A DNA stretch of 64,000 nt from a virus. Positions 1-13,600 of this stretch are shown here, piece after piece. Below the pieces are notes generated by a model that made no database searches, was not told the DNA's origin, and saw nothing but the letters and a program-made list of their open reading frames with translations. Position numbers and translations under genes: made by a program. Where the stretch lies: positions 1 to 64,000 of IMG/VR virus record IMGVR_UViG_3300008740_000712; one strand, written 5' to 3'. Position 1 is the first letter of the stretch, and each line of letters begins with the position of its first letter.

Positions 1-3000
1 CCGTTGAATCCACCAACATCGTTAGTTATGTTCTCTCCAACATTAGCAGGTCTTGCCATGTCTAACCACCCTGTGTCTCCCGGTATCTTAACTTCACAAT
101 GAATATTCTTATTTGCTCCCACTGCACCTGTGTTGAATGCCCCACCTTTTGCGACGAGGTTGGCATCGCCATAGAGAGTGACAGTTGCAAGAGAAACATC
201 ACCAACTTGATTTGAACGGAAATATCGATAATATTCCCTTGTTGTGGTTGCCAGGGAGGAGTAATTGGGGTTGCCACCGGGAGATTGAAGAACTCCACCA
301 TTTACTACGGAACGGTAATCACCACTCAACCCCCCCTTTGATGGGGAGAGGAGTTTGCCTCCGTAAAGAGAAAGTCCATTCGAATATCTGATATAAGATC
401 CAACATCGTTCACACTAATAGAGGAGTCCCACTTGTTGCCTGCATTGGTGACACTGTTTTGAGTGGCATAGGAGCCCGACTGTAATCTATATTTCTCTCC
501 ATCCATAGGTTCATTCGTATTAATATTTCCTGACTCACTGCCACTGAATACTAGAAAACTGTGCTGATTAACGGTTGATGTAGTCAAGTTTGATTTCAGT
601 GGGTGTTTCACTCTGGAGTTGACTGAGGCAGTGTGGGAAACAGATGCATGTTCTCCCACTAAGGAGGTCGCAGGATCAAACGTGACTGTTCCCGTAACAA
701 AGAGGGTTTGATTTTGCGAATTTGCAGAAGTGGACAAAGGTGGAAGTGCCTTTGTTGCTCCGTTTGTTGTTCCTGGTGACGAGAGTCCACTGCCATTCGT
801 GGTTATCTTCGAGACAGATGTGTTTGTCGTAGTTGGGAAACTAATGCCATCACTAAGTTCATAATACACATTTTTATACACATTTGAGACAGAGTATCGA
901 TATGAAGAAGAGCAAGTAGTAAAGTATTTTACACCAGAAAGAGAGAAAAACACACTTCCAGAAAAAGAATCCAAAACAACACCTGCTGATGCGAGTGCAT
1001 TTGAGTCATTATCGTTCACCCACTCCACATAGTTTGTAGTTGTTTGACCTATTTCAGAACCGGTGTGGAACACCCTTGCGTAGTTCCACCCATTCCTCTG
1101 ATCGGCCGCAGTGACTTGATATTTTCCCGTCCTATACATCTTTGTGTAATCCGGAAGATTGTTTCCTGAGTATTTTCCTGCGTCATAATTGCTCAAACTA
1201 ACGAACCCGGAACCGTTCCCGTTGACCTCCGAGTCTGTCCCTGATCCTGGGTTTCCCGATCCTACACTAGCACTGGCCAGATCAACCTCGTGTATAACTG
1301 CTCCATTTACTTCCAACTTCAAACTACCAGTGGCAGCATTGTTGAAAGAGTTTGCCACATAACTCGGACTGTTTGCTGAGACATCCTCATTTAACTCCCC
1401 ATCGATCACTGCTGTGCCGTCAAAGATACCAGCTATATCGAGACTACTAACGTAGTTACCGTTTAGATCTACGGCCGAATTACCAGTGGTTGTTGTTACG
1501 TTGGAGTATCCTCCGATGGGTTTTGATGACCCAAAAGATAATTTAGCATCTTGGCCATTGTCATTAATATCGATGTCATCAAGGACAGGCGCGTCCGAAG
1601 GGGATGCTCCGGTGCCTGCGCCAAAAGAAACAACTATATCGTCAACATATCCTGTCCAGGCCGTGGTTGCCTCTATCTTTAAAACAATGTCATCTCCGTT
1701 GGCAACACCTGTTGTTCCGAAAGACAATCGATTTTCTGCATCGACAGAATTATCAAAAGACAGAACATACGCACCGGAGCCGTCGGATGTATCGTCAAAA
1801 GTGAAAGATTGGGCAACATCCATAAACCCAGTGGATCCTGGAATCTTTATAAATGCTCTGATTCTGCCGGAATTTAGGGCACTGCTGCTTGGCACTATTG
1901 TAGTAGAAGAACCATTTATCGTTAGAACAATGTCCCTCTTGGTTGCTCCAGTGGAATTTCTAAAATATCTAAAGAATGACCTCAACCCGGATTCACTAGA
2001 ATAATCTGGATTTCCGGGAGGTGCGACACCGAGGGGGCCACCTTCGGCATTGTCACGAAAATCACCATCGTTCAAGGTTGCAAGTGGTGAATAGAGTCGG
2101 GCATTATAAAACTGCAATCCGTCAGAGTGGTGTCCGGAGGCAGTCATGTGAGTTTGAGAATTCCAAGTCCCACTATCGACATCCGATTGGTTATCGTATG
2201 ATCCAGATGAAAGACGATAGGATTCTATTTTAAATCTTTCTCGGAGTGCGGTGGAGTTACCTGAAATGTTGTAAATGAGAAGACCTGTTAGGTTTGCTGT
2301 CCCTGCATTATTGAGATCTGATTTGAGTGGGTGAGCAACATTGACCTTGGAGGTGAGGGTGCCACTGAGGAATGTGTTGCCCGATGATGTTGCACTCCCT
2401 GTGATTCTCAAGACTTTTGTCTCGTCCTCTCCGGCACCAGTGTTTAGTGGTGGAAATCCTTGCGATGAGATTGTGCAATTCGTATTTGTAAAGGAAATGT
2501 TTTGTGTCGTATACACATTCTTGTATGCATTGTTGACATCGACGAGGTAATCTGCCGTGATGGATGTGAAGTACTTTACTCCTGAGAGGTATTTGCTTCC
2601 AGATCCTGCTGCATTTGTAAATCTTGCGTTTGTGGCAGTGAGGGCGGTGTTGTTGTTGTCGTTTACCCACTGGACATGGTTCGTTGTTTTTAATCCCCAC
2701 GAACCAGAATGCTTTACTTCCGCATAGTTCCATCCATTTCGTTGATTGGCAGCTGCAATCTTATAATCTGCCGTTCTATGTTGAAAGATGCTGAACTGGT
2801 TTTGACTGCGATCTTGTGCAGACGAGGTTGTCGAGACGTTATAGAACCCTGAACCGGCACCGTTCAGGTGACTGCCATTTCCACTTCCAGGATTCCCGGA
2901 ACCAATAGAGTCTGAGGTCAGGTCGATGCTGTGAAGTTGTGCTCCATTTACAAACAACTGAAGTGATCCTGTTTCAGCATTACCAAATGAGTCTGCGGGA

Positions 3001-6000
3001 TAGTTGACGACAGAGTTGTCGTATGTATCCGTAGCAACATGAAAATTTACCTCCCCATTAATTACGGTAGATCCGTTGAATGTTGCTCTGCGGAGATTGT
3101 TACCAGATGACTGAACTTGGCTCGTATCATTAACATCTAATCCGGCAAAACTATCGAGAGTTGCCACGTTCGTGTATCCCGATATTGTGTTTGCTGCTCC
3201 GAATGATAGTTCGGCAGAAACACCCGTATCTGAGCAATTTATTTTCGATACATCAGGTGCTGGAGAGGGTGCTAGTATTTTTAGGATTTCGTTGAACCTG
3301 TCAACAGAAACACCGATGGAGGTATTGCTTGTAAAATCTGTGAAAAGACCATCCGTATAAGATCCGTCTTCGGCGTTACCAATTGTGGTGGTGCCGCCAC
3401 CTCCACCTGTGGATGAAATAGTTATCTGACCATTGGAGCCTGTCACGAGAGTAACATTAGATCCTCCAATGAGGTAGGGATTGCCGTTTCGAAGTTTCGT
3501 TAAGGAGCCTGTCAGAGCAGTGGCAATGAGATCACCAACTGTTATATCGTTTGTTGTGGTGGCCCCGTTATCAGTTATTTGATCTAATGTTGATGCTGTT
3601 GAGATTCCGGTAAGCTTAGATCCGTCACCGTAGAATGCCGATGCAGACATGTTTATCGATGCAGACAAGTTTCCAATGATCGTGGCGTTGCCAGTGTGAC
3701 TTCCATCCCACTCTGCTGTGACTCCAGTGAGGCTTGATCCATCACCGTAAAAACCTGATGCAGAAACATTTACCGAGGCAGATAACCCTGCAACTGCAAG
3801 TGTTGAGGTTGTTGTGGAACCTCTTCCGGTGACACTCTGTAAAGTGTCTGTTTCCGCATAATAACTTGCAGTTTGTGCAGTGACGACATAGGATGCGGTT
3901 TGGGCAGTGACTGCATTAGTTGCGTTGGTTGCACTAGCAACTGTGCCGACGATATTCCCAGCAGTGATTGCCGTAAGATTTGCACCATTACCATAAAATG
4001 CCGATGAGGACATGCTTATTGATGCAGACAAGTTTCCGATGATGGTTGCATTGCCTGTGTGGGAACCATCCCATTCTGCTGTGACTCCAGTGATATTGGA
4101 ACCATCTCCATAAAATCCCGATGCTGAAATGTTGGTGGATGCAGATAAAGCTGCAACGGAAAGGGTGCCTGTCGAGGTTGCCCCACGAGCAGTTACCGAT
4201 TGGAGAGTGTCTGTCTCTGCGTAGTAAGATGCAGTTTGGGCAGTAACTGCATTCGTTGCATTGGCAATTGCTCCAACGATGTTGCCAGCAGTGATGTTGG
4301 TAAGTGCCGAACCGTTACCTGTGAATGTGGACGCAAGAATGCCAGATGATGCACTCAACTGCCCATCTATGGTTGCATTGCCTGTGTGGGAACCATCCCA
4401 TTCTGCTGTGACTCCCGTGATGTTTGATCCATCTCCATAAAATGCTGATGCAGACATGTTCATTGATGAAGATAGATTTCCTATAATTGTGGCATCTCCA
4501 TTATGTGATCCGTCCCACTCTGCTGTGACTCCAGTGATATTGGAACCATCACCATAAAAACCGGATGCTGAAATGTTGATGGATGCAGATAACCCCGATA
4601 CCGAAAGGGTGCCTGTGGTGGTTGACCCCCTGGAAGTGACACTCTGAAGGGTGTCTGTCTCTGCATAATAACTTGCTGTTTGGGCAGTGACTGCGTTTGT
4701 CGCATTGGATACTGCCCCGTTTACAGCAGAACCAATTATATATGATGCTGTATGGGCCAAGGCAACGGCACCGTCTACATTCACCCCCAGAATATAGTCT
4801 GTCTGGGTTGAACGATCTGCAAGGGTTGAGTGCGATGCTGTTCCAAAGAGAGATCCCGTAAAAGACACCGCAGTGATCGAAGCAGAGGTGGAGTTGCCGT
4901 TATTTGTAATGTATTGCAAAGTAAAATCTGTTGCACTTCTGCCACCAACAGTAGACGCATTTACTGCCTGCGATGCGTAGGAAGCAGAATTTGCAATGGA
5001 CGCAGTGAGGGCATTGGTTATCGATCCGGTCAATGTTGCTGAAGATCCAATTGTAATTTCACTCGTGGTCGTATCAATATCTATATTGGGTCCGGCAAGC
5101 AATGACTTAAACTGCAATTCTCTGCCGACCTTCTGGCTAAACAGTCCGATCCCCGTACCAAGATTTTTAACAGTATTTATTTCACCATCGGCACCTGTTG
5201 TCAGTGTTGCGTTGTCGCACAACTCTGTTGATGTCATGTCGATAATTTTACCATCAACTTTTTGTTGAGAAAGTTTAAAAACACCCTCTCTTGACCTAAT
5301 GCATGTCGCAACAATTTCAAATTTCTGATCTACCTGTCCGAAGAGTTGCCTCGGCTGTCCAACTGTTGTTATTTCATAAAGGATCTTACCATATAAGACA
5401 AAATCACCCTCCCTCACAAAGAGGTTCTGATCTTCTGAGAGTCTCCTTTTGTGAAACCTGACAGTTATCTGAGATCTTCTGTCTATCCCTAGATTTGTGT
5501 TGGTTGTATCCGACCCCTCCCATGAGACTGCGGCAAAGACTCGCATTGGTGGAAGGAATGTCTTTTTTACGGCCTCTCCGTAGAGGTCATGAAAATTACT
5601 GTGCTTTACGCTGACCGGAAAATAGACGACTTGTTGCCCAATCACTCGTTCGAGCATCTCATCATTAACTTGCTTTACTAAGTCCGTTGATTTTTTCCCT
5701 GTGAAGAGTGGTGGGGGTGGATTTGAGGGTCTTTCGGATATTTCCTCACATGCTACCGGTGTTGTTCCGGAACCTCCTGTGGAGGTGCCTGTGCCGTCCA
5801 GAACATTGAGTTCGTTTACAGGATCACATGGAGCAGCAGTTAGTCTAGGGTCGTCTTCGTCTGATACTTTTTTTTGCTCTGGAAAAACACCATCTCGGGC
5901 TCTTATGCAGGTTGCGACAATTTCAATTTGAGTTTCTATTTGCCCAAAGAGAGGTCTGGGTTGTCCGAGGGCGACAATCTCATAGTGATGCTCACCATAC

Positions 6001-6365
6001 AAAACGAAGTCTCCCTCTCTTACAAAAAGATTTTGATCTTCAGTAATTCTCCTCTTGTGGAAGTGAATTACAATAGAGGACTTCTTATCTAGTCCGTAAT
6101 TATTGAGAGAAGTCTGCTCCTGTTCCCTCTCAACATAGGCGCTAATCCTGACAGGTGGCAAAAAAGACTTGTCAATTGCTTCCCCATAGAGATCGTGAAA
6201 ATTGCTGTGCTTTACACTTATCGGATAATACACAACCTCCGATTTAACGACGCGTTCGACAATCTCATCGGTGACTTGCTTTACAAGGTCTTTTTCTTTT
6301 TTTCCTGTAAACAAGGGTGGTGGAGGTGCTTCCGGTTGCTTCCAGACATTATCGTTATCTGACAT
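1..6365 (-). CDS. Partial (3'-truncated by window edge) >2,120-aa protein: two tandem T4 gp14-like neck/head-closure domains fused to a repeat-containing fibre and two ~550-aa repeated domains
   Basis: ATG at 6365 (MSDNDNVWKQPEAPPPPLFTGKKEKDLVKQ...), 9 nt after the neck gene stop and preceded by GGGGG. The manually translated frame is identical at 6365, 5900, 5710, 5290, 5000 and positions 3-57. It is absent from the ORF track, consistent with no stop before the edge. Both domains carry PPPPLFTG, HSNFHDLYGEA, FHKRR.TEDQNLFVREGDFVLYG and ATCIR.R.GVF. Confidence 0.85.
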   Translation of the reverse strand, partial: MSDNDNVWKQPEAPPPPLFTGKKEKDLVKQVTDEIVERVVKSEVVYYPISVKHSNFHDLYGEAIDKSFLPPVRISAYVEREQEQTSLNNYGLDKKSSIVIHFHKRRITEDQNLFVREGDFVLYGEHHYEIVALGQPRPLFGQIETQIEIVATCIRARDGVFPEQKKVSDEDDPRLTAAPCDPVNELNVLDGTGTSTGGSGTTPVACEEISERPSNPPPPLFTGKKSTDLVKQVNDEMLERVIGQQVVYFPVSVKHSNFHDLYGEAVKKTFLPPMRVFAAVSWEGSDTTNTNLGIDRRSQITVRFHKRRLSEDQNLFVREGDFVLYGKILYEITTVGQPRQLFGQVDQKFEIVATCIRSREGVFKLSQQKVDGKIIDMTSTELCDNATLTTGADGEINTVKNLGTGIGLFSQKVGRELQFKSLLAGPNIDIDTTTSEITIGSSATLTGSITNALTASIANSASYASQAVNASTVGGRSATDFTLQYITNNGNSTSASITAVSFTGSLFGTASHSTLADRSTQTDYILGVNVDGAVALAHTASYIIGSAVNGAVSNATNAVTAQTASYYAETDTLQSVTSRGSTTTGTLSVSGLSASINISASGFYGDGSNITGVTAEWDGSHNGDATIIGNLSSSMNMSASAFYGDGSNITGVTAEWDGSHTGNATIDGQLSASSGILASTFTGNGSALTNITAGNIVGAIANATNAVTAQTASYYAETDTLQSVTARGATSTGTLSVAALSASTNISASGFYGDGSNITGVTAEWDGSHTGNATIIGNLSASISMSSSAFYGNGANLTAITAGNIVGTVASATNATNAVTAQTASYVVTAQTASYYAETDTLQSVTGRGSTTTSTLAVAGLSASVNVSASGFYGDGSSLTGVTAEWDGSHTGNATIIGNLSASINMSASAFYGDGSKLTGISTASTLDQITDNGATTTNDITVGDLIATALTGSLTKLRNGNPYLIGGSNVTLVTGSNGQITISSTGGGGGTTTIGNAEDGSYTDGLFTDFTSNTSIGVSVDRFNEILKILAPSPAPDVSKINCSDTGVSAELSFGAANTISGYTNVATLDSFAGLDVNDTSQVQSSGNNLRRATFNGSTVINGEVNFHVATDTYDNSVVNYPADSFGNAETGSLQLFVNGAQLHSIDLTSDSIGSGNPGSGNGSHLNGAGSGFYNVSTTSSAQDRSQNQFSIFQHRTADYKIAAANQRNGWNYAEVKHSGSWGLKTTNHVQWVNDNNNTALTATNARFTNAAGSGSKYLSGVKYFTSITADYLVDVNNAYKNVYTTQNISFTNTNCTISSQGFPPLNTGAGEDETKVLRITGSATSSGNTFLSGTLTSKVNVAHPLKSDLNNAGTANLTGLLIYNISGNSTALRERFKIESYRLSSGSYDNQSDVDSGTWNSQTHMTASGHHSDGLQFYNARLYSPLATLNDGDFRDNAEGGPLGVAPPGNPDYSSESGLRSFFRYFRNSTGATKRDIVLTINGSSTTIVPSSSALNSGRIRAFIKIPGSTGFMDVAQSFTFDDTSDGSGAYVLSFDNSVDAENRLSFGTTGVANGDDIVLKIEATTAWTGYVDDIVVSFGAGTGASPSDAPVLDDIDINDNGQDAKLSFGSSKPIGGYSNVTTTTGNSAVDLNGNYVSSLDIAGIFDGTAVIDGELNEDVSANSPSYVANSFNNAATGSLKLEVNGAVIHEVDLASASVGSGNPGSGTDSEVNGNGSGFVSLSNYDAGKYSGNNLPDYTKMYRTGKYQVTAADQRNGWNYARVFHTGSEIGQTTTNYVEWVNDNDSNALASAGVVLDSFSGSVFFSLSGVKYFTTCSSSYRYSVSNVYKNVYYELSDGISFPTTTNTSVSKITTNGSGLSSPGTTNGATKALPPLSTSANSQNQTLFVTGTVTFDPATSLVGEHASVSHTASVNSRVKHPLKSNLTTSTVNQHSFLVFSGSESGNINTNEPMDGEKYRLQSGSYATQNSVTNAGNKWDSSISVNDVGSYIRYSNGLSLYGGKLLSPSKGGLSGDYRSVVNGGVLQSPGGNPNYSSLATTTREYYRYFRSNQVGDVSLATVTLYGDANLVAKGGAFNTGAVGANKNIHCEVKIPGDTGWLDMARPANVGENITNDVGGFN
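3630..4710 (-). repeat. Intragenic repeats in the fibre part of the neck fusion (AETDTLQSVT.RG x3; S.FYGDGS..TGVTAEWDGSH.G.A x4)
   Basis: Recurring DNA such as cccattctgctgtgactcc and gtgactccagtgatattggaaccatc. The translated motifs repeat. Confidence 0.85.
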
Positions 6366-6374
6366 CTAAACCCC

Positions 6375-7625
6375 CTATCCGACAAATATGCTTAGTGGTA
6401 TCTTTTTCTGAATTGTGCTGACGTTATCGACAAGTTCGGCATCCCCTGCCATCATTCTTCCGTAGGTTTGTTCGTCAAGAACTGCTTTTAACTCTTCCCT
6501 AAGTTGACTTTGTTCTTCTTTGGCCTGTGAAATCAGGTCTGATCCGTTGAGAGTTACTGATTCTCCTGGAATCGGGATGTTTCCGAACTTACCCCTAACA
6601 TGCCCCAATGTTTCTTTGCAAAGAGATAAAGCAAACCTTCTAATCCACTGTTTTCCTATTGAATTTATATTCACATAAGGAACATTTGAGAAAGGCAGGG
6701 TATTCATATTGTTGATGCCGTCTAATCCAACATCCACAGTTTCCGATGTTACCCAAGAGTCTCCCGGAATAGAAAATTCGACCCAAAACTTGCTACCATT
6801 AGAGATGTTTGGAGTTGGAAAAAGTCTTAATTTATTGTTTTTCAACTCATAAGAATAGTGACTTGTTCTGGTGTATATGTTGTCCTCATATGCCATTGCC
6901 TGTAATTTGTTTTGCCAAGCTGGAACGACCTCGAAGGTGGAGTCGTCTGCATACTGTCCATAAGTTGACATATTGCCTACAACCCCGACGCCGCCATAAT
7001 ATCCGTAAAATCTCCACATAGACTTGTTTGATTTATAGTAAACTTTCTTAATAAGAACCTTCCTATTGCCAACAGAACCACTAAAGGGTTCACTTGTTGA
7101 AATTAGGTTCTGTAAATCGTAATCTTGTTGACTGTTTACGACGTTAAAGGAGGCAGAATATACTGTATTGTTTCCTCCGACATTTGCATCTTCCGAAATT
7201 CCATCTGCAACTCTTCTTGCGTAGGCAAAATCAAATGATGGGTACTTTAACGAAACATGAGAGCCTCCCAAGCTTGAGGAAAGTTCTCCAGGAAGCATAT
7301 CTCCCTTGTGGTCAAAAGATCCTGTAGAATTGCCAAGGACATCAGAAAGAATGTTTTTGCTCTGATGTATGTTTACTAAATAAGAATACTCCAAACATGC
7401 CTCTTCATATGCGGCATAAACATTTGCCTCCTTTATCTCGATATCCAAAACATCTCCACCCAGCTTCCTGTAAACATAGGTAACTTGGGCAGCTGCGCCT
7501 GATAGAAATTGTGAAGACGTATATGCCTTTGTTGCCAGAGCAGCTGCAACATTCAGCACACTTCCGGTTTCAGGAAGAACAGAAACACTTGTTCTGCTCT
7601 TGGGAGTTAGGGTTGGTAATGCCAT
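6375..7625 (-). CDS. Neck / head-tail adaptor protein (T4 gp13-like)
   Basis: Located between the capsid and head-closure genes. The C-terminal WIRRFALSLCKETLGHVRGKF...LNGSDLISQAKEE pattern is typical of T4-like neck proteins. SD GGAGGA. Confidence 0.7.
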   Translation of the reverse strand: MALPTLTPKSRTSVSVLPETGSVLNVAAALATKAYTSSQFLSGAAAQVTYVYRKLGGDVLDIEIKEANVYAAYEEACLEYSYLVNIHQSKNILSDVLGNSTGSFDHKGDMLPGELSSSLGGSHVSLKYPSFDFAYARRVADGISEDANVGGNNTVYSASFNVVNSQQDYDLQNLISTSEPFSGSVGNRKVLIKKVYYKSNKSMWRFYGYYGGVGVVGNMSTYGQYADDSTFEVVPAWQNKLQAMAYEDNIYTRTSHYSYELKNNKLRLFPTPNISNGSKFWVEFSIPGDSWVTSETVDVGLDGINNMNTLPFSNVPYVNINSIGKQWIRRFALSLCKETLGHVRGKFGNIPIPGESVTLNGSDLISQAKEEQSQLREELKAVLDEQTYGRMMAGDAELVDNVSTIQKKIPLSIFVG

Positions 7626-7740: not shown

Positions 7741-9444
7741 TTAACCATTAAAGTCATGCACAATAACAAGTCCGTACATGTCAGGACGTACCATCTTCTT
7801 AGCATAACGTGTCATCACACCTTTTCTTGGCACGAAATCTTCAGTACCAAAAATGGTGGGTGTCACTTGCAACGGGACGTAGGGAGCATAGACATATCCA
7901 CTTTCGAGGAAGCTACTTCCTTTGCGACCACAAAGAATGACGTTACGAGGGAAGTAAGGGTCAACATATACTTCCAATTTGTTGCTGAGACTGCCGACGT
8001 TTACAGCACCTGCGGAGCCTTTGTCTGCGTCTACTTCAACTTTTGCCTTAAATCCAGCAGTGAATTCTAAGATGTTTGCTGCTTCTGGTGAACACACCAA
8101 GAAGTTAGCTCCACCTTTCAAAGTCTTGCGATGGATTTGAGCAGAAATGTCATTGACGGTTTCGAGAAGAGTCTCGTACCACTCACTGACAGTACCGGTA
8201 AAGTCACCACCAAGCATTGCTTCGTTTGCACCTGAACTAATGGCATTGCCAGTAGAACGATCCAAGAAACGGCCTGGACGACGTGACCAGTGCATCTTGC
8301 CACCTTTGGCACCCTTAACCAAATCACCCAAGATTTCTTGATCAATTTCCAAACCGATGTGCTCGGAGAGGACGTTGGTCAATTCAACTTCAGCGTCGAG
8401 GTTATGGTAAGCATTCAAGTCTTGACCCAATTCAGGTGTCCAACGTGCTTTCAACTTGCGAGTTTGAGCAGTAACAGCAATGCTGTCTACCTTGATGTCA
8501 ATCTCGGCAATGTCGGTATTTCCACCAGCATTTGACAAAGTATCACTACCCTCAAGGCCCCACGGAGTGGCACCAACAACAGCGCCAGTGGCACCGCCAG
8601 TAGTGATGTTATCCAATGAAGGATAAGTAACCAGCAAAGCAGCATTGTTGCTACCGATAGTGATGGCACCGGTGTGGGCTGCGACAAAAGTAATGTTTCC
8701 ATCGGAATCCAATCTGGTCAATCGTCGAACGATGGTTCCAGAACCGAAGGGAACATTAACAGCCATAAGGTTGTTTTGATCCAAATCGGTTGGGATGTCA
8801 CCTACAGCAACTTTATGCTCGGACACATTAGTATATGGACTGCCGGACAACAAATCAGGATCTGCATCGATTCTCTTCATCAAAGCTCCGGATAAAGCAG
8901 TAACCGCGTGTTGTGTTGCAATGTCAGCACCAGCTGTCAATGTAATTGTAGCAGAACCAGTAGGTGCTGTATATCCATTGTTTAAGTTATAGAGTCCCTT
9001 TTCGGCATTGGCACCGGCCAAATCAAGGCCGTCTACGATGCCCTTACCGACTTTGCCTCCACCATAGATGGAACCGTCGTTATCACCTAGTGGTCCCAAT
9101 TTGTCACTATCAGTCTTGGTAAAATCCAAGAAGAAAATGAGGCCAGAGGGCAAACTCATAGGTTGAACTGAAACCAGTTCGTTGGCAATCAATCCACCGA
9201 ATACACGACGAACGATTGGAAATGCAACTGCTGCAAAACCTTCTACGTCACCACTGGACATAGCAGATGCTTCGCGAAGCAATTCTTTTGCTTGGTTTTC
9301 AAGCAAAGTTGCCATGCAGTCTTTGTTGCGGTCTTGAAGACCTTCGAGAAGACCAGAGGCTTCCCATTTGGTACGGATAGCAGCTCCCTCTGCGGAGAGG
9401 TTGCGATCAACAATACCTTCTGTTAATTTTTCTAAAATAGACAT
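7741..9444 (-). CDS. Major capsid protein (T4 gp23-like)
   Basis: Motifs VSVQPMSLPSGLIFFLDF, TAQTRKLKARWTPELGQDL.AYH.LDAE.EL, VYAPYVPLQ and GVMTRYAK. Strong SD AGGAG. Confidence 0.96.
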   Translation of the reverse strand: MSILEKLTEGIVDRNLSAEGAAIRTKWEASGLLEGLQDRNKDCMATLLENQAKELLREASAMSSGDVEGFAAVAFPIVRRVFGGLIANELVSVQPMSLPSGLIFFLDFTKTDSDKLGPLGDNDGSIYGGGKVGKGIVDGLDLAGANAEKGLYNLNNGYTAPTGSATITLTAGADIATQHAVTALSGALMKRIDADPDLLSGSPYTNVSEHKVAVGDIPTDLDQNNLMAVNVPFGSGTIVRRLTRLDSDGNITFVAAHTGAITIGSNNAALLVTYPSLDNITTGGATGAVVGATPWGLEGSDTLSNAGGNTDIAEIDIKVDSIAVTAQTRKLKARWTPELGQDLNAYHNLDAEVELTNVLSEHIGLEIDQEILGDLVKGAKGGKMHWSRRPGRFLDRSTGNAISSGANEAMLGGDFTGTVSEWYETLLETVNDISAQIHRKTLKGGANFLVCSPEAANILEFTAGFKAKVEVDADKGSAGAVNVGSLSNKLEVYVDPYFPRNVILCGRKGSSFLESGYVYAPYVPLQVTPTIFGTEDFVPRKGVMTRYAKKMVRPDMYGLVIVHDFNG

Positions 9445-10635: not shown

Positions 10636-13600
10636 TTACTCTTCAGCTGCCGTAGCAAATGGTGAGGAGTGCCATACACCCTCTTCGCAAAAATAGAACT
10701 TATTGGAAGTATCAAAGTCATCGTATGCTTTGTGCCCAGATGTCGGATACTTGTTGGTGACATATATCATCTGACCATTAAGAGCACAGTTTGCTGCTCC
10801 GTTGGCAGCACCTGCAAGATACTCCAAGATGTCCTGTTGTGTTGCATCGTTTCCATCAAGTTTGCCCAACTGTAGTGAACCATTGATAGTAACCTTGTCA
10901 GTACCGTCAGTTGCTTGATAGGCAGTACCCAATGTAGCAATCTGAGTGCCCGATCCAGCAACAGTCAAGTGGTCACTCAAGACGGTCGTGCCTGCGGCCA
11001 GACTTGTCAGAGTACCAACACTTGTTAGTGATGATGCGACAACAGCACTACCTAGAGTAGTTGCACTCAAGGTGACAGCTCCGTTAATCTTAAACGATTT
11101 TCCACTTGCAAGATCCATGTGTTCACTGGAAGTCCAAGAATCCGTAGCATCAACCCAATTAAAGGTTTTGTCACTATTGGATGATTTCAAAGTAATACCA
11201 CCACCATCTACGGCAGCATCATTACCTTCAGCACCACTCGGACTGTGAGCAAGTTCAATGTTCTTGTCATCAATTTGAACTGTTGTTGAGTTGACAATGT
11301 TTGTCGTACCATTAACAGTCAAGTTTCCAGGAATTGTTACGTTTGCTCCATCTAAAGTAATTGCAGTTGTTCCACCACTACTCTTAATGTCGTTACCCGT
11401 AACAGTCAAATCACCTCCAACAGTCACGTTGTCAGGAAGAGCAAACGTGATTGTGTTGTTGCTAACAGTGGTCGTGATTTCATTCGCAGTACCTGCGAAC
11501 TCAAGAGTGTCAGTACCAACAGTTACAGCATCGTCAGATCCACTATCCGCACCGATTGTTAGTGTACCAGCAGTAGCAGACAATTGACCATTACTTGCAG
11601 TGATGCCCGTACCGGCCATTCCAGCAACAAGATCGGCAATTGACTCTTTCTTGGTAGAATTGTCAGTTGCATCAATTATCGCAATACTATCAGCAGACAC
11701 GGCAACTGTTGCAGCAGTCAACTCATTCAAGTCAAGGGACAAAACACCGGATGTAGGCTTCAAACCATCACCTGCGGTAGCAGTTATCAAGTCAGCAATG
11801 CTTTCCTTTTTGGTAGAATTGTCATCTGCATCAATTATCGCAATGCTATCGGAAGCAACAGCAACTGTTGCAGCAGTCAACTCATTCAAGTCAAGAGACA
11901 AAACACCAGATGTTGGTTTCAAACCATCACCTGCGGTAGCAGTTATCAAGTCAGCAATGCTTTCCTTCTTTGTTGCGTCACTAGCATCTGCGTCCATGAA
12001 GACAAAACTATCGTTAGCAACATTGATGGCAGCAGCACCTACTTCGTTCAAGTCAACAGACAAGACAGCAGAAGCAGCAGCAAGACCAGTTCCTGCGAAC
12101 AAGGTAGCAATGTCGTCGATGCTCTCTTTCTTGGTACTGTTGTCAGTCGCATCTACGAATACAAAGTTATCACCAGAAGCAACAGCAGCAGCACTCAGTT
12201 CATTAGCATCCAGAGAAAGGACACCAGAGGCAGCGGCAAGGCCAACACCTGCGGTAGCAGTCATCAAGTCAGCAATAGTTTCTTTTTTGGAAGAATTATC
12301 ATCTGCGTCAATAATTGCAATACTGTCAGAAGCAACTGCAACAGCTGCTGCACTCAACTCATTCAAGTCCAGTGCTAAAGTGGTAGTTGCACCAAGTGCG
12401 GTTGATCCACCACCAGACAAACCATTACCGGCAGTTATTGTAGTTGTACTATTTGCCAACATAGCATTAGTAACACCACTTGCCTTGATCCTCAGAGCAT
12501 CACTGTTAGTTTCGATAGAACTATTATCAACACCGACAGCAAGAACACCCGAAGAGGCAGACAAACCATCACCAGCAGCAGCAGTCATCAAGTCAGCAAT
12601 ACTCTCCTTTTTGGAAGAATTATCATCTGCATCGATGATTGCAATGCTATCTGCACCAACTGCAACAGCTGCGGCAGTCAGTTCATTCAAGTCAAGTGCC
12701 AGAGAGGTTGATGCACCGAGTGCTGGAGTTCCACCACCGGAAAGACCGTTACCTGCTGTAACTCCCACTGTGCTGTTTGCCAACATAGCATTAGTAACAC
12801 CACTTGCCTTAACCCTAAGTGCATCGCCGTTTGTCTCGATTGAACTATCATCAACCCCAACAGACAAGACTCCGGAACTATGAGCAAGACCATCTCCTGC
12901 GACGGCAGCAGCAACTTTGGCAGCACCATTCGCATCGATAACAGTAGCGTTATTGATCTTATAAGCATTGCCTGATGCCAAGTTCATGTGATCGGTAACG
13001 TCAAAGCTATCAACACCATCGTACAAGAATGAAGCAGAAACTTCACCACCGTCAGTGTCATCTGAGCAGAAGGCAAGACCAGCACCACCAGCAGCAGCAA
13101 TCTCCGCATTTGAAGATCCTGTTGCGAGCAAGAATACTTTGTCCTGAATCTCTACAGCTGTACTGTTGACTGTAGTGGTCGTACCATTTACAATCAAGTT
13201 TCCAGTAATCGTTGCGTTTCTAGTAACAGTTAAATCCTGACCAATTGTCACGTCGTTTGGTTGTGAGAATGTGATCGTATTATCACTGACAGTAGTCACG
13301 ATCTCATTCGCAGTACCTGCGAACTCAAGAGTGTCAGTACCAACAGTCACTGTGTCATCAGAACCTGAATCCGCACCGATTGTTAGTGTACCGTTTGCTC
13401 CAGCCAAGACACCGTTTGTTGCAGTGAGGTTTGAACCTGCGATTGCAGCAACGAAGTCAGCAATGCTTTCTTTCTTTGTTGCATCACTAGCATCTGCGTC
13501 CATGAAGACAAAACTATCGTTAGCAACATTGATGGCAGCAGCACCTACTTCGTCCAAATCAACAGACAAGACACCGGCCGAGGCACCAAGACCTACACCA

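What the first reader, a model, noticed from the sequence alone, without database searches (positions are those of the whole stretch)
5270..6365. Neck/head-closure protein duplicated in tandem and fused to a >1,750-aa fibre
T4-like head-closure (gp14-type) proteins are normally single domains encoded alone. Here one ORF, unlisted in the track, starts with two complete copies about 202 aa apart, joined by Cys-containing linkers (APCDP, VACEE, ELCDN). It then continues in frame into a repeat fibre and large duplicated domains. Inference: the neck ring itself would carry collar-like appendages, and a tandem dimer would halve the number of chains needed per ring. This would be an unusual neck architecture.
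Basis: partly seen in the sequence, partly recalled or inferred. Interest (0 to 1): 0.75.

Follow-up and report, generated by a model that had tools for sequence, protein, structure and literature searches.

The report
Doubled neck-ring protein fused to fibre
In this uncultured marine T4-like phage, the small protein that normally closes the head and joins it to the tail (the T4 gp14 equivalent) carries two copies of its ring-forming domain and is fused to a fibre of about 1,800 residues, so the neck ring carries its own appendages; I found no paper describing this layout, though this scan has already met it in other genomes.

Summary
A minus-strand ORF (6365..3, cut by the contig end) opens with two copies of a ~160-aa domain that are 58% identical (E 9e-80). 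It then runs without a stop into a repeat fibre and two ~500-aa paralogous distal domains.

A 99.8%-identical contig supplies the missing end, giving 2,181 aa in total.

An AlphaFold model of one copy (pLDDT 88) matches T4 gp14 best (VIA-align Z 11; Foldseek E 4e-6). It also matches the stopper/head-closure proteins of many other phages.

The gene sits in the gp14 slot: major capsid protein, gp13-like adaptor, this gene, then sheath. Thousands of related phages have a stand-alone 162-aa orthologue there.

Five further independent contigs carry the same uninterrupted fusion, so it is not a misassembly.

A tree shows one ancestral duplication. Both copies are under strong purifying selection and keep 95 of the 105 positions conserved in single-domain orthologues.

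The most likely reading is three chains building a pseudo-six-fold stopper ring with built-in collar fibres. The chain count is untested: the tandem AlphaFold model failed. Six chains in a twelve-domain or two-layer ring remain possible.

The function of the distal domains is unknown.

This scan found the same architecture before on other DNA (e1-5806245, e1-5810478).

The parts
3..6365 (-). Neck-fibre gene. 2,121 codons lie in the window and the last 60 codons lie beyond the contig end; the full length is 2,181 aa, read from the near-identical contig L009.
6371..6375 (-). GGGGG Shine-Dalgarno site 5 nt upstream of the ATG at 6365. It overlaps the TAG stop of the upstream adaptor gene.
5871..6365 (-). 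Stopper/head-closure domain, copy 1 (residues 1-165). It has an N-terminal PPPPLF arm, one helix and a beta-sandwich core.
   Evidence: HMM envelope; AlphaFold pLDDT 87.9; T4 gp14 match, Z 11.0
5742..5870 (-). Conserved inter-domain linker (residues 166-208). It has an acidic start, the motif DPRLTAxxCDPxxE, a Gly/Ser/Thr stretch and a second Cys.
5265..5741 (-). Stopper/head-closure domain, copy 2 (residues 209-367). It has no internal start codon.
3336..5168 (-). Ser/Thr/Ala/Gly-rich repeat fibre (about residues 400-1010) with PF06598 repeats and 244-300-nt direct DNA repeats.
1809..3272 (-). Distal domain, copy 1 (residues 1032-1519). Its fold is unknown. Relatives exist elsewhere as separate ~710-aa phage proteins.
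3..1604 (-). Distal domain, copy 2 (residues 1588 to the end), 38% identical to copy 1.
6375..7625 (-). Upstream neighbour: gp13-like head-tail adaptor (PHROG 211, Ad2).
   Evidence: T4 gp13 carries the same label
7741..9444 (-). gp23-type major capsid protein.

Best explanation
This gene is the phage's only gp14-type stopper (head-closure) protein. One ancestral tandem duplication gave each chain two ring-forming domains, and the chain continues into a fibre of about 1,800 residues. After DNA packaging, the stopper domains assemble under the gp13-like dodecameric adaptor. There they close the channel and give the tail terminator its docking surface, as T4 gp14 does. Both copies keep nearly all family-conserved positions, so they most likely sit side by side in one ring. 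Three chains would then fill six ring positions (a pseudo-hexamer), and three long appendages would project from the head-tail joint like a built-in collar or whiskers. What is shown: the duplication, the fold, the gene position, the uninterrupted fusion, and purifying selection on both copies. What is inferred: ring assembly, three chains per ring, and outward projection of the fibre (by analogy with the gp14 C-terminus, which runs along the outside of gp15). A role of the distal domains in binding the host or other surfaces is also only inferred.
For: Tandem copies are 58% identical, E 9e-80. AlphaFold on copy 1 gives pLDDT 87.9 and pTM 0.78. The top Foldseek hit is 9mkb_0 at E 3.9e-6, and that chain is T4 gp14. 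VIA-align gives Z 10.5-11.0 to T4 gp14 over 131-139 residues. It gives Z 7-10.8 to the phage 812, Chi, Pam3, T1, lambda and SPP1 stopper-layer chains. hhalign against T4 gp14 lines up the YYP, (L/I)(Y/F)GE, EGD, (Y/F)EI and GQ motifs at E 0.0014. Gene order is capsid protein, Ad2 adaptor, this gene, a 479-aa gene, a 271-aa gene, then sheath. Single-domain relatives have capsid protein, Ad2, a 162-aa orthologue, the 271-aa-like gene, then sheath. Mel-JY01 has the same slot. No second copy of the domain exists in the 119-kb contig. Six independent contigs carry the intact fusion. In the tree, the copy-1 clade (support 0.975) is sister to the copy-2 clade (0.995), and both nest inside single-domain sequences. 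dN is 0.04-0.25 while dS is saturated in both copies. Of 105 positions conserved in single-domain orthologues, 95 are kept in both copies; only 2 changed in copy 1 alone and 6 in copy 2 alone. T4 gp14 is a hexamer on a gp13 dodecamer, has weak gp14-gp14 contacts, and has a C-terminal tail on the outside of gp15 (PMC12929629, PMC12929587).
Against: Pfam and PHROGs show no sequence-level match to the gp14 families. The profile comparison gives only 17% probability. The AlphaFold model of the tandem region failed (pLDDT 55.7, pTM 0.33), so nothing shows how the two copies pack. Stopper rings are not always hexamers: phiKZ gp99 is a 12-mer with two conformations (PMC13250141). Phage fibres are usually trimers, and three chains 120 degrees apart cannot easily form one. 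No virion proteomics or image exists for this uncultured phage.
Confidence: 0.8

Rival explanations
1. Same protein and same role, but six chains per neck. The twelve domains would form either one 12-membered ring with two alternating conformations (as in phiKZ gp99) or two stacked six-membered rings, giving six fibres.
For: The phiKZ stopper is a dodecamer with two conformers, one of which holds the whiskers (PMC13250141). The stopper fold resembles tube proteins, which stack (PMC12929629). The 45-60-residue linker could span either arrangement.
Against: The closest structural match, T4 gp14, is a hexamer. No ring gene is lost in the tandem clade relative to single-domain relatives. The two copies show no complementary loss of conserved positions, as different layers would predict.
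Confidence: 0.3
2. The long ORF is an assembly or frameshift artefact that joins a stand-alone neck gene, a second copy and a fibre gene.
For: The ORF is cut by the contig end, and the fibre contains long DNA repeats that could confuse assemblers.
Against: The same uninterrupted layout occurs in six contigs from different metagenomes at 65-100% identity, and in about 57 protein clusters. The copies are diverged at DNA level. Copy 2 has no start codon of its own.
Confidence: 0.02
3. The tandem domains no longer act as the stopper. They merely anchor a fibre to the neck as decoration, while an unrecognised protein closes the channel.
For: Phage 812 and phiKZ necks carry separate decoration proteins. 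The contig is incomplete (119 kb), so another stopper could lie in the missing part.
Against: The gene replaces the single-domain orthologue in exactly the same slot. Conserved positions and purifying selection are as in single-domain orthologues. No other copy lies in the contig.
Confidence: 0.07

Closest known systems
T4 gp14 (head closure Hc2, neck stopper; PDB 9MKB, 9LU4-9LU7)
   Same: Same fold (Z about 11). Same gene slot after the gp13-like adaptor. Shared short motifs. An acidic stretch after the core, like the gp14 C-terminal tail.
   Different: gp14 has 256 aa, one domain per chain and no fibre. There is no Pfam or PHROG sequence match. Here there are two domains per chain plus about 1,800 aa of extension.
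T4 fibritin (wac) collar and whiskers
   Same: A fibrous appendage at the neck. The wac gene lies next to genes 13 and 14 in T4.
   Different: Fibritin is a separate trimeric coiled-coil protein that binds gp13 domain III non-covalently (PMC12929629). Here the fibre is covalently part of the gp14-like protein, and fibritin families gave no sequence match.
phiKZ stopper gp99 (12 copies, two conformations, one set holding the whiskers)
   Same: A stopper layer in which alternating subunits do different jobs, including holding neck appendages. Its chain matched the model at Z 7.3.
   Different: gp99 subunits are identical single chains, and the whisker is a separate protein.
Tandem tube-fold proteins that turn three chains into a six-fold ring (T4 gp27-type baseplate hubs)
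   Same: The same proposed principle: duplicating a tube-like domain so that a trimer mimics a hexamer (general knowledge; phiKZ gp101 and T4 gp27).
   Different: Those sit at the baseplate, not the neck. The geometry here is not shown.
Extended head-closure proteins labelled 'head closure knob' (549-590 aa) and single-domain-plus-extension relatives
   Same: A stopper fold with a long C-terminal extension.
   Different: None of the BFVD matches is labelled as having a tandem stopper domain, and the extended forms listed there are far shorter (549-776 aa); in the relatives collected here, a second stopper domain goes with the longest extensions (up to 2,479 aa).

Membership tests
gp14-type stopper / head-closure proteins (T4 gp14, lambda gpFII, SPP1 gp16) | Stopper fold: an N-terminal helix plus a beta-sandwich core related to tail-tube proteins | tested here: met
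   Model pLDDT 87.9. Z 10.5-11.0 to T4 gp14, 9.1-9.2 to the lambda neck chain and 7.3 to the SPP1 connector chain. Foldseek E 3.9e-6.
gp14-type stopper / head-closure proteins (T4 gp14, lambda gpFII, SPP1 gp16) | Gene lies between the head-tail adaptor and the tail terminator/sheath genes | tested here: met
   T4 has the order 13-14-15.
gp14-type stopper / head-closure proteins (T4 gp14, lambda gpFII, SPP1 gp16) | Sequence match to the curated T4 neck-protein families (Pfam, PHROGs) | tested here: not met
   No Pfam hit at E <= 0.1 and no PHROG hit at E <= 0.01 for either copy. hhalign to T4 gp14 gives E 0.0014 and probability 17%.
gp14-type stopper / head-closure proteins (T4 gp14, lambda gpFII, SPP1 gp16) | Forms a 6- or 12-membered ring under the adaptor and closes the DNA channel | not testable with these tools
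   The tandem AlphaFold model failed. No multimer prediction or model coordinates were available.
gp14-type stopper / head-closure proteins (T4 gp14, lambda gpFII, SPP1 gp16) | One ring domain per chain | tested here: not met
   Two domains per chain.
T4 fibritin (wac) whiskers | Sequence match to fibritin families | tested here: not met
   Pfam and PHROGs scans of the whole protein found only PF06598.
Chlorovirus glycoprotein repeat (PF06598) | Score above the Pfam gathering threshold | tested here: met
   58 bits against a cut-off of 27, four stretches.
Pseudo-hexameric tandem tube-fold trimers (gp27-like) | The two domains of one chain related by about 60 degrees in one ring | not testable with these tools
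   The tandem model has low confidence.

The most novel reading that the evidence does not exclude
Three tandem-domain chains build the six-position stopper ring, so the neck itself converts six-fold to three-fold symmetry. It would carry three covalently attached appendages of about 1,800 residues. This would be a new way of building collar fibres, and the covalent pairing would pay part of the entropic cost of a ring that is weak on its own in T4.
Probability: 0.45. Interest if true: 0.7.

Novelty: new variant of a known kind. Interest (0 to 1): 0.6.

Why it matters
Neck proteins are treated as small, invariant plumbing.

- **A different way to carry appendages.** A widespread clade of uncultured marine T4-like phages has turned the stopper into the carrier of a giant appendage. 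That is a different solution from T4's separately encoded fibritin.
- **A symmetry adaptor at the neck.** If three chains make the ring, this is a symmetry adaptor at the neck, something known so far at baseplates.
- **Annotation.** It also explains why these genomes seem to lack a gp14 annotation, and why a 2,000-aa 'hypothetical protein' follows gp13.
- **A tractable test system.** The family holds single, single-plus-extension and tandem-plus-extension forms, with at least two independent duplications. It is a tractable system for asking how ring proteins tolerate fusion.

Tried and rejected
- **Family scans.** Pfam and PHROGs on each copy and on the whole protein found nothing for the neck domains.
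- **PDB by sequence.** A single sequence and a profile gave only chance hits.
- **Circular join.** Joining the contig ends continues the frame into an unrelated acidic protein, and the contig has no terminal overlap. I rejected this; the real C-terminus came from L009.
- **Tandem region model.** AlphaFold on residues 1-385 with 42 tandem homologues gave pLDDT 55.7 and pTM 0.33, so I did not use it for fold search or geometry.
- **Distal domain.** The ESM Atlas (best score 0.75, below the useful range), PDB by sequence and Pfam/PHROGs gave no assignment. The homologue search shows only unnamed ~710-aa phage proteins. No paralogue lies elsewhere in the contig.
- **Pfam accessions precomputed for relatives' extensions.** They could not be reproduced or named.
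- I took context from IMG/VR loci instead.
- **Literature.** Searches for a tandem or fibre-fused stopper found no description.
Full report
**What is there**

The window is the first 64 kb of a 119,130-bp contig. On the minus strand an ORF starts at ATG 6365. A GGGGG ribosome-binding site precedes it and overlaps the stop of the upstream gene. The ORF runs without a stop to the contig end, 2,121 codons.

Residues 5-181 and 207-384 are 58% identical (E 9e-80). A profile built from homologues finds two full domains, at 1-165 and 209-367. Downstream come three further parts:
- A Ser/Thr/Ala/Gly-rich repeat region, about residues 400-1010, with four PF06598 repeats.
- A glycine run.
- Two paralogous ~500-aa domains, 38% identical, E 7e-86.

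IMG/VR contig L009 is 99.8% identical in DNA over 5,886 nt. It supplies the missing 60 codons, so the protein has 2,181 aa and ends right after the second distal domain.

**Is it real?**

The two copies are too diverged to register as DNA repeats. Copy 2 has no start codon. Five further independent metagenomic contigs carry the same uninterrupted tandem plus extension, from 873 to 2,479 aa. The large protein database holds about 57 clusters with two copies plus an extension. A misassembly or frameshift is therefore excluded for practical purposes.

**What the domain is**

Pfam, PHROGs and PDB sequence searches are silent. With a 49-sequence alignment (A1), AlphaFold gives a confident model: pLDDT 87.9, pTM 0.78.
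- Foldseek's best PDB hit is chain 9mkb_0 (E 3.9e-6). I confirmed this chain is T4 gp14 by searching the PDB with the T4 gene 14 product.
- VIA-align gives Z 10.5-11.0 to T4 gp14 in four entries.
- It gives Z 7-10.8 to matching chains in neck and connector entries of phages 812, Chi, Pam3, Pa193, T1, lambda, SPP1 and others. The phage 812 stopper entry itself (8qgr) scores 8.4.
- A profile-to-sequence comparison with T4 gp14 is statistically weak (E 0.0014, probability 17%). It does line up the family's short motifs.
- BFVD matches include proteins labelled neck protein, head-tail joining protein and head closure knob.

**Context**

The genes run leftward on the minus strand: terminase, portal, prohead protease, several giant structural proteins, a gp23-type capsid protein (7741-9444), a gp13-like Ad2 adaptor (6375-7625), then this gene. 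In L009 and L003 it is followed by a 479-aa gene, a 271-aa gene and the tail sheath.

In relatives with the single-domain form, the order is capsid protein, Ad2, a 162-aa orthologue, a protein similar to the 271-aa one, then sheath. Cultured Microcystis phage Mel-JY01 has a 174-aa orthologue in that slot. T4 itself has wac-13-14-15.

So the tandem-fibre gene stands exactly where the single stopper gene stands. No other copy of the domain is found in the contig.

**Family survey and history**

- A search at similar length found more than 4,164 clusters. The listed ones are almost all about 162 aa and 60-76% identical.
- A search for longer proteins found 183. About 54 of these score double (two copies), and more than 100 have one copy plus a C-terminal extension.
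- An exhaustive search of 50%-identity representatives found 495.

In a maximum-likelihood tree of 379 domains, all copy-1 sequences form one clade (support 0.975). All but one copy-2 sequence form its sister clade (0.995). The pair (0.875) nests within single-domain sequences. This indicates one duplication in the ancestor of this phage clade. A distant protein (P0351, 753 aa, 21% identity) has its own pair of sister copies, which indicates an independent second duplication.

**Constraints on the two copies**

- Against close relatives, dN is 0.04-0.13 in both copies while dS is saturated. Copy 2 is the more conserved.
- Of 105 positions that are at least 80% conserved in single-domain orthologues, 95 are unchanged in both copies. 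Two changed only in copy 1, six only in copy 2, and two in both.
- The N-terminal PPPPLFTGK arm is invariant in both copies.
- The linker is not a mere spacer. DPR, CDP and a second Cys are conserved across the 42 aligned tandem proteins, as is a Cys after copy 2. One relative lacks the first Cys.

**Mechanism**

In T4, gp14 is a hexamer on the gp13 dodecamer. Its loops close the channel. Its own subunit contacts are weak, and its acidic C-terminal tail runs along the outside of gp15. Fibritin is a separate protein bound to gp13 (PMC12929629, PMC12929587).

Three observations point the same way. Both copies keep the same conserved positions. The adaptor and the terminator candidate are unchanged between single and tandem phages. 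No ring gene is lost.

The most economical model follows from these. The copies alternate in one six-position ring made of three chains, and the C-terminal fibre leaves from the outside of the neck-tail joint. I put this at about 0.45-0.55.

The alternative is six chains, either as a 12-ring with two conformers, as in phiKZ gp99 (PMC13250141), or as two stacked rings. I put that at about 0.3.

I could not settle this. The AlphaFold model of the tandem region was poor, and the tools give no multimer prediction.

**The appendage**

Its fold and its oligomeric state are unknown. The distal domain also occurs as separate ~710-aa proteins in many marine phage contigs. It has no match in Pfam, PDB or the Atlas.

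Most ~900-aa tandem relatives end in two 'YFNENGVW' cap modules. In this clade those modules are instead on the separately encoded 479-aa protein just downstream. In L007 they are fused to the neck protein, and the separate gene is absent. This suggests that the 479-aa protein belongs to the same appendage.

**Comparison and novelty**

By fold and position this is a gp14-type stopper. By curated sequence families it is not a recognised member. It breaks the one-domain-per-chain rule.

Extended head-closure proteins exist in databases. I found no paper describing a tandem stopper or a stopper fused to a fibre.

This scan has already reported the same architecture on other genomes, with the same reading. 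The present window adds:
- the complete protein length;
- the tree, with one ancestral duplication and one independent duplication;
- the conservation test on the two copies;
- the link to the 479-aa cap protein.

Noticed in passing
L009:6077-7516 (the gene just beyond the window's left end); also window 10651-10776: A 479-aa protein lies immediately downstream of the neck-fibre gene and ends in two 'K(F/Y)YFNENGVW..SPF' cap modules. The same module ends most ~900-aa tandem relatives, the 873-aa L007 neck protein (which has no separate 479-aa gene) and the window's 2,346-aa structural protein. It looks like a shared fibre-end module that is sometimes fused and sometimes encoded separately.
   Followed up: partly
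P0351 (753 aa): A distant homologue (21% identity) also has two stopper domains plus an extension. Its two copies are each other's closest relatives, which indicates an independent tandem duplication in another phage lineage.
   Followed up: partly
L001:6001-6333 (Flavobacterium phage immuto_3-5A, MW353176.1 133212-133544): The stopper orthologue of this cultured phage is not annotated. The record instead lists two small ORFs of 39-42 aa on the opposite strand over the same stretch, which is probably a mis-annotation.
   Followed up: no
P0273, P0271, P0277, P0287: Some relatives carry the stopper domain at the C-terminal end after an N-terminal extension of 110-550 aa, the opposite polarity of fusion.
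   Followed up: no
window 1-3 / contig end: The window starts at base 1 of a 119-kb contig with no terminal overlap. The genome is therefore incomplete, and the tail genes (terminator candidate, sheath) lie beyond it.
   Followed up: yes
window 65055-67300 of the contig (outside the window): Another gene, on the minus strand of the contig at about 65-67 kb, shares the fibre's TAQTASY.../repeat segment (41-62% identity over 34-78 aa).
   Followed up: no
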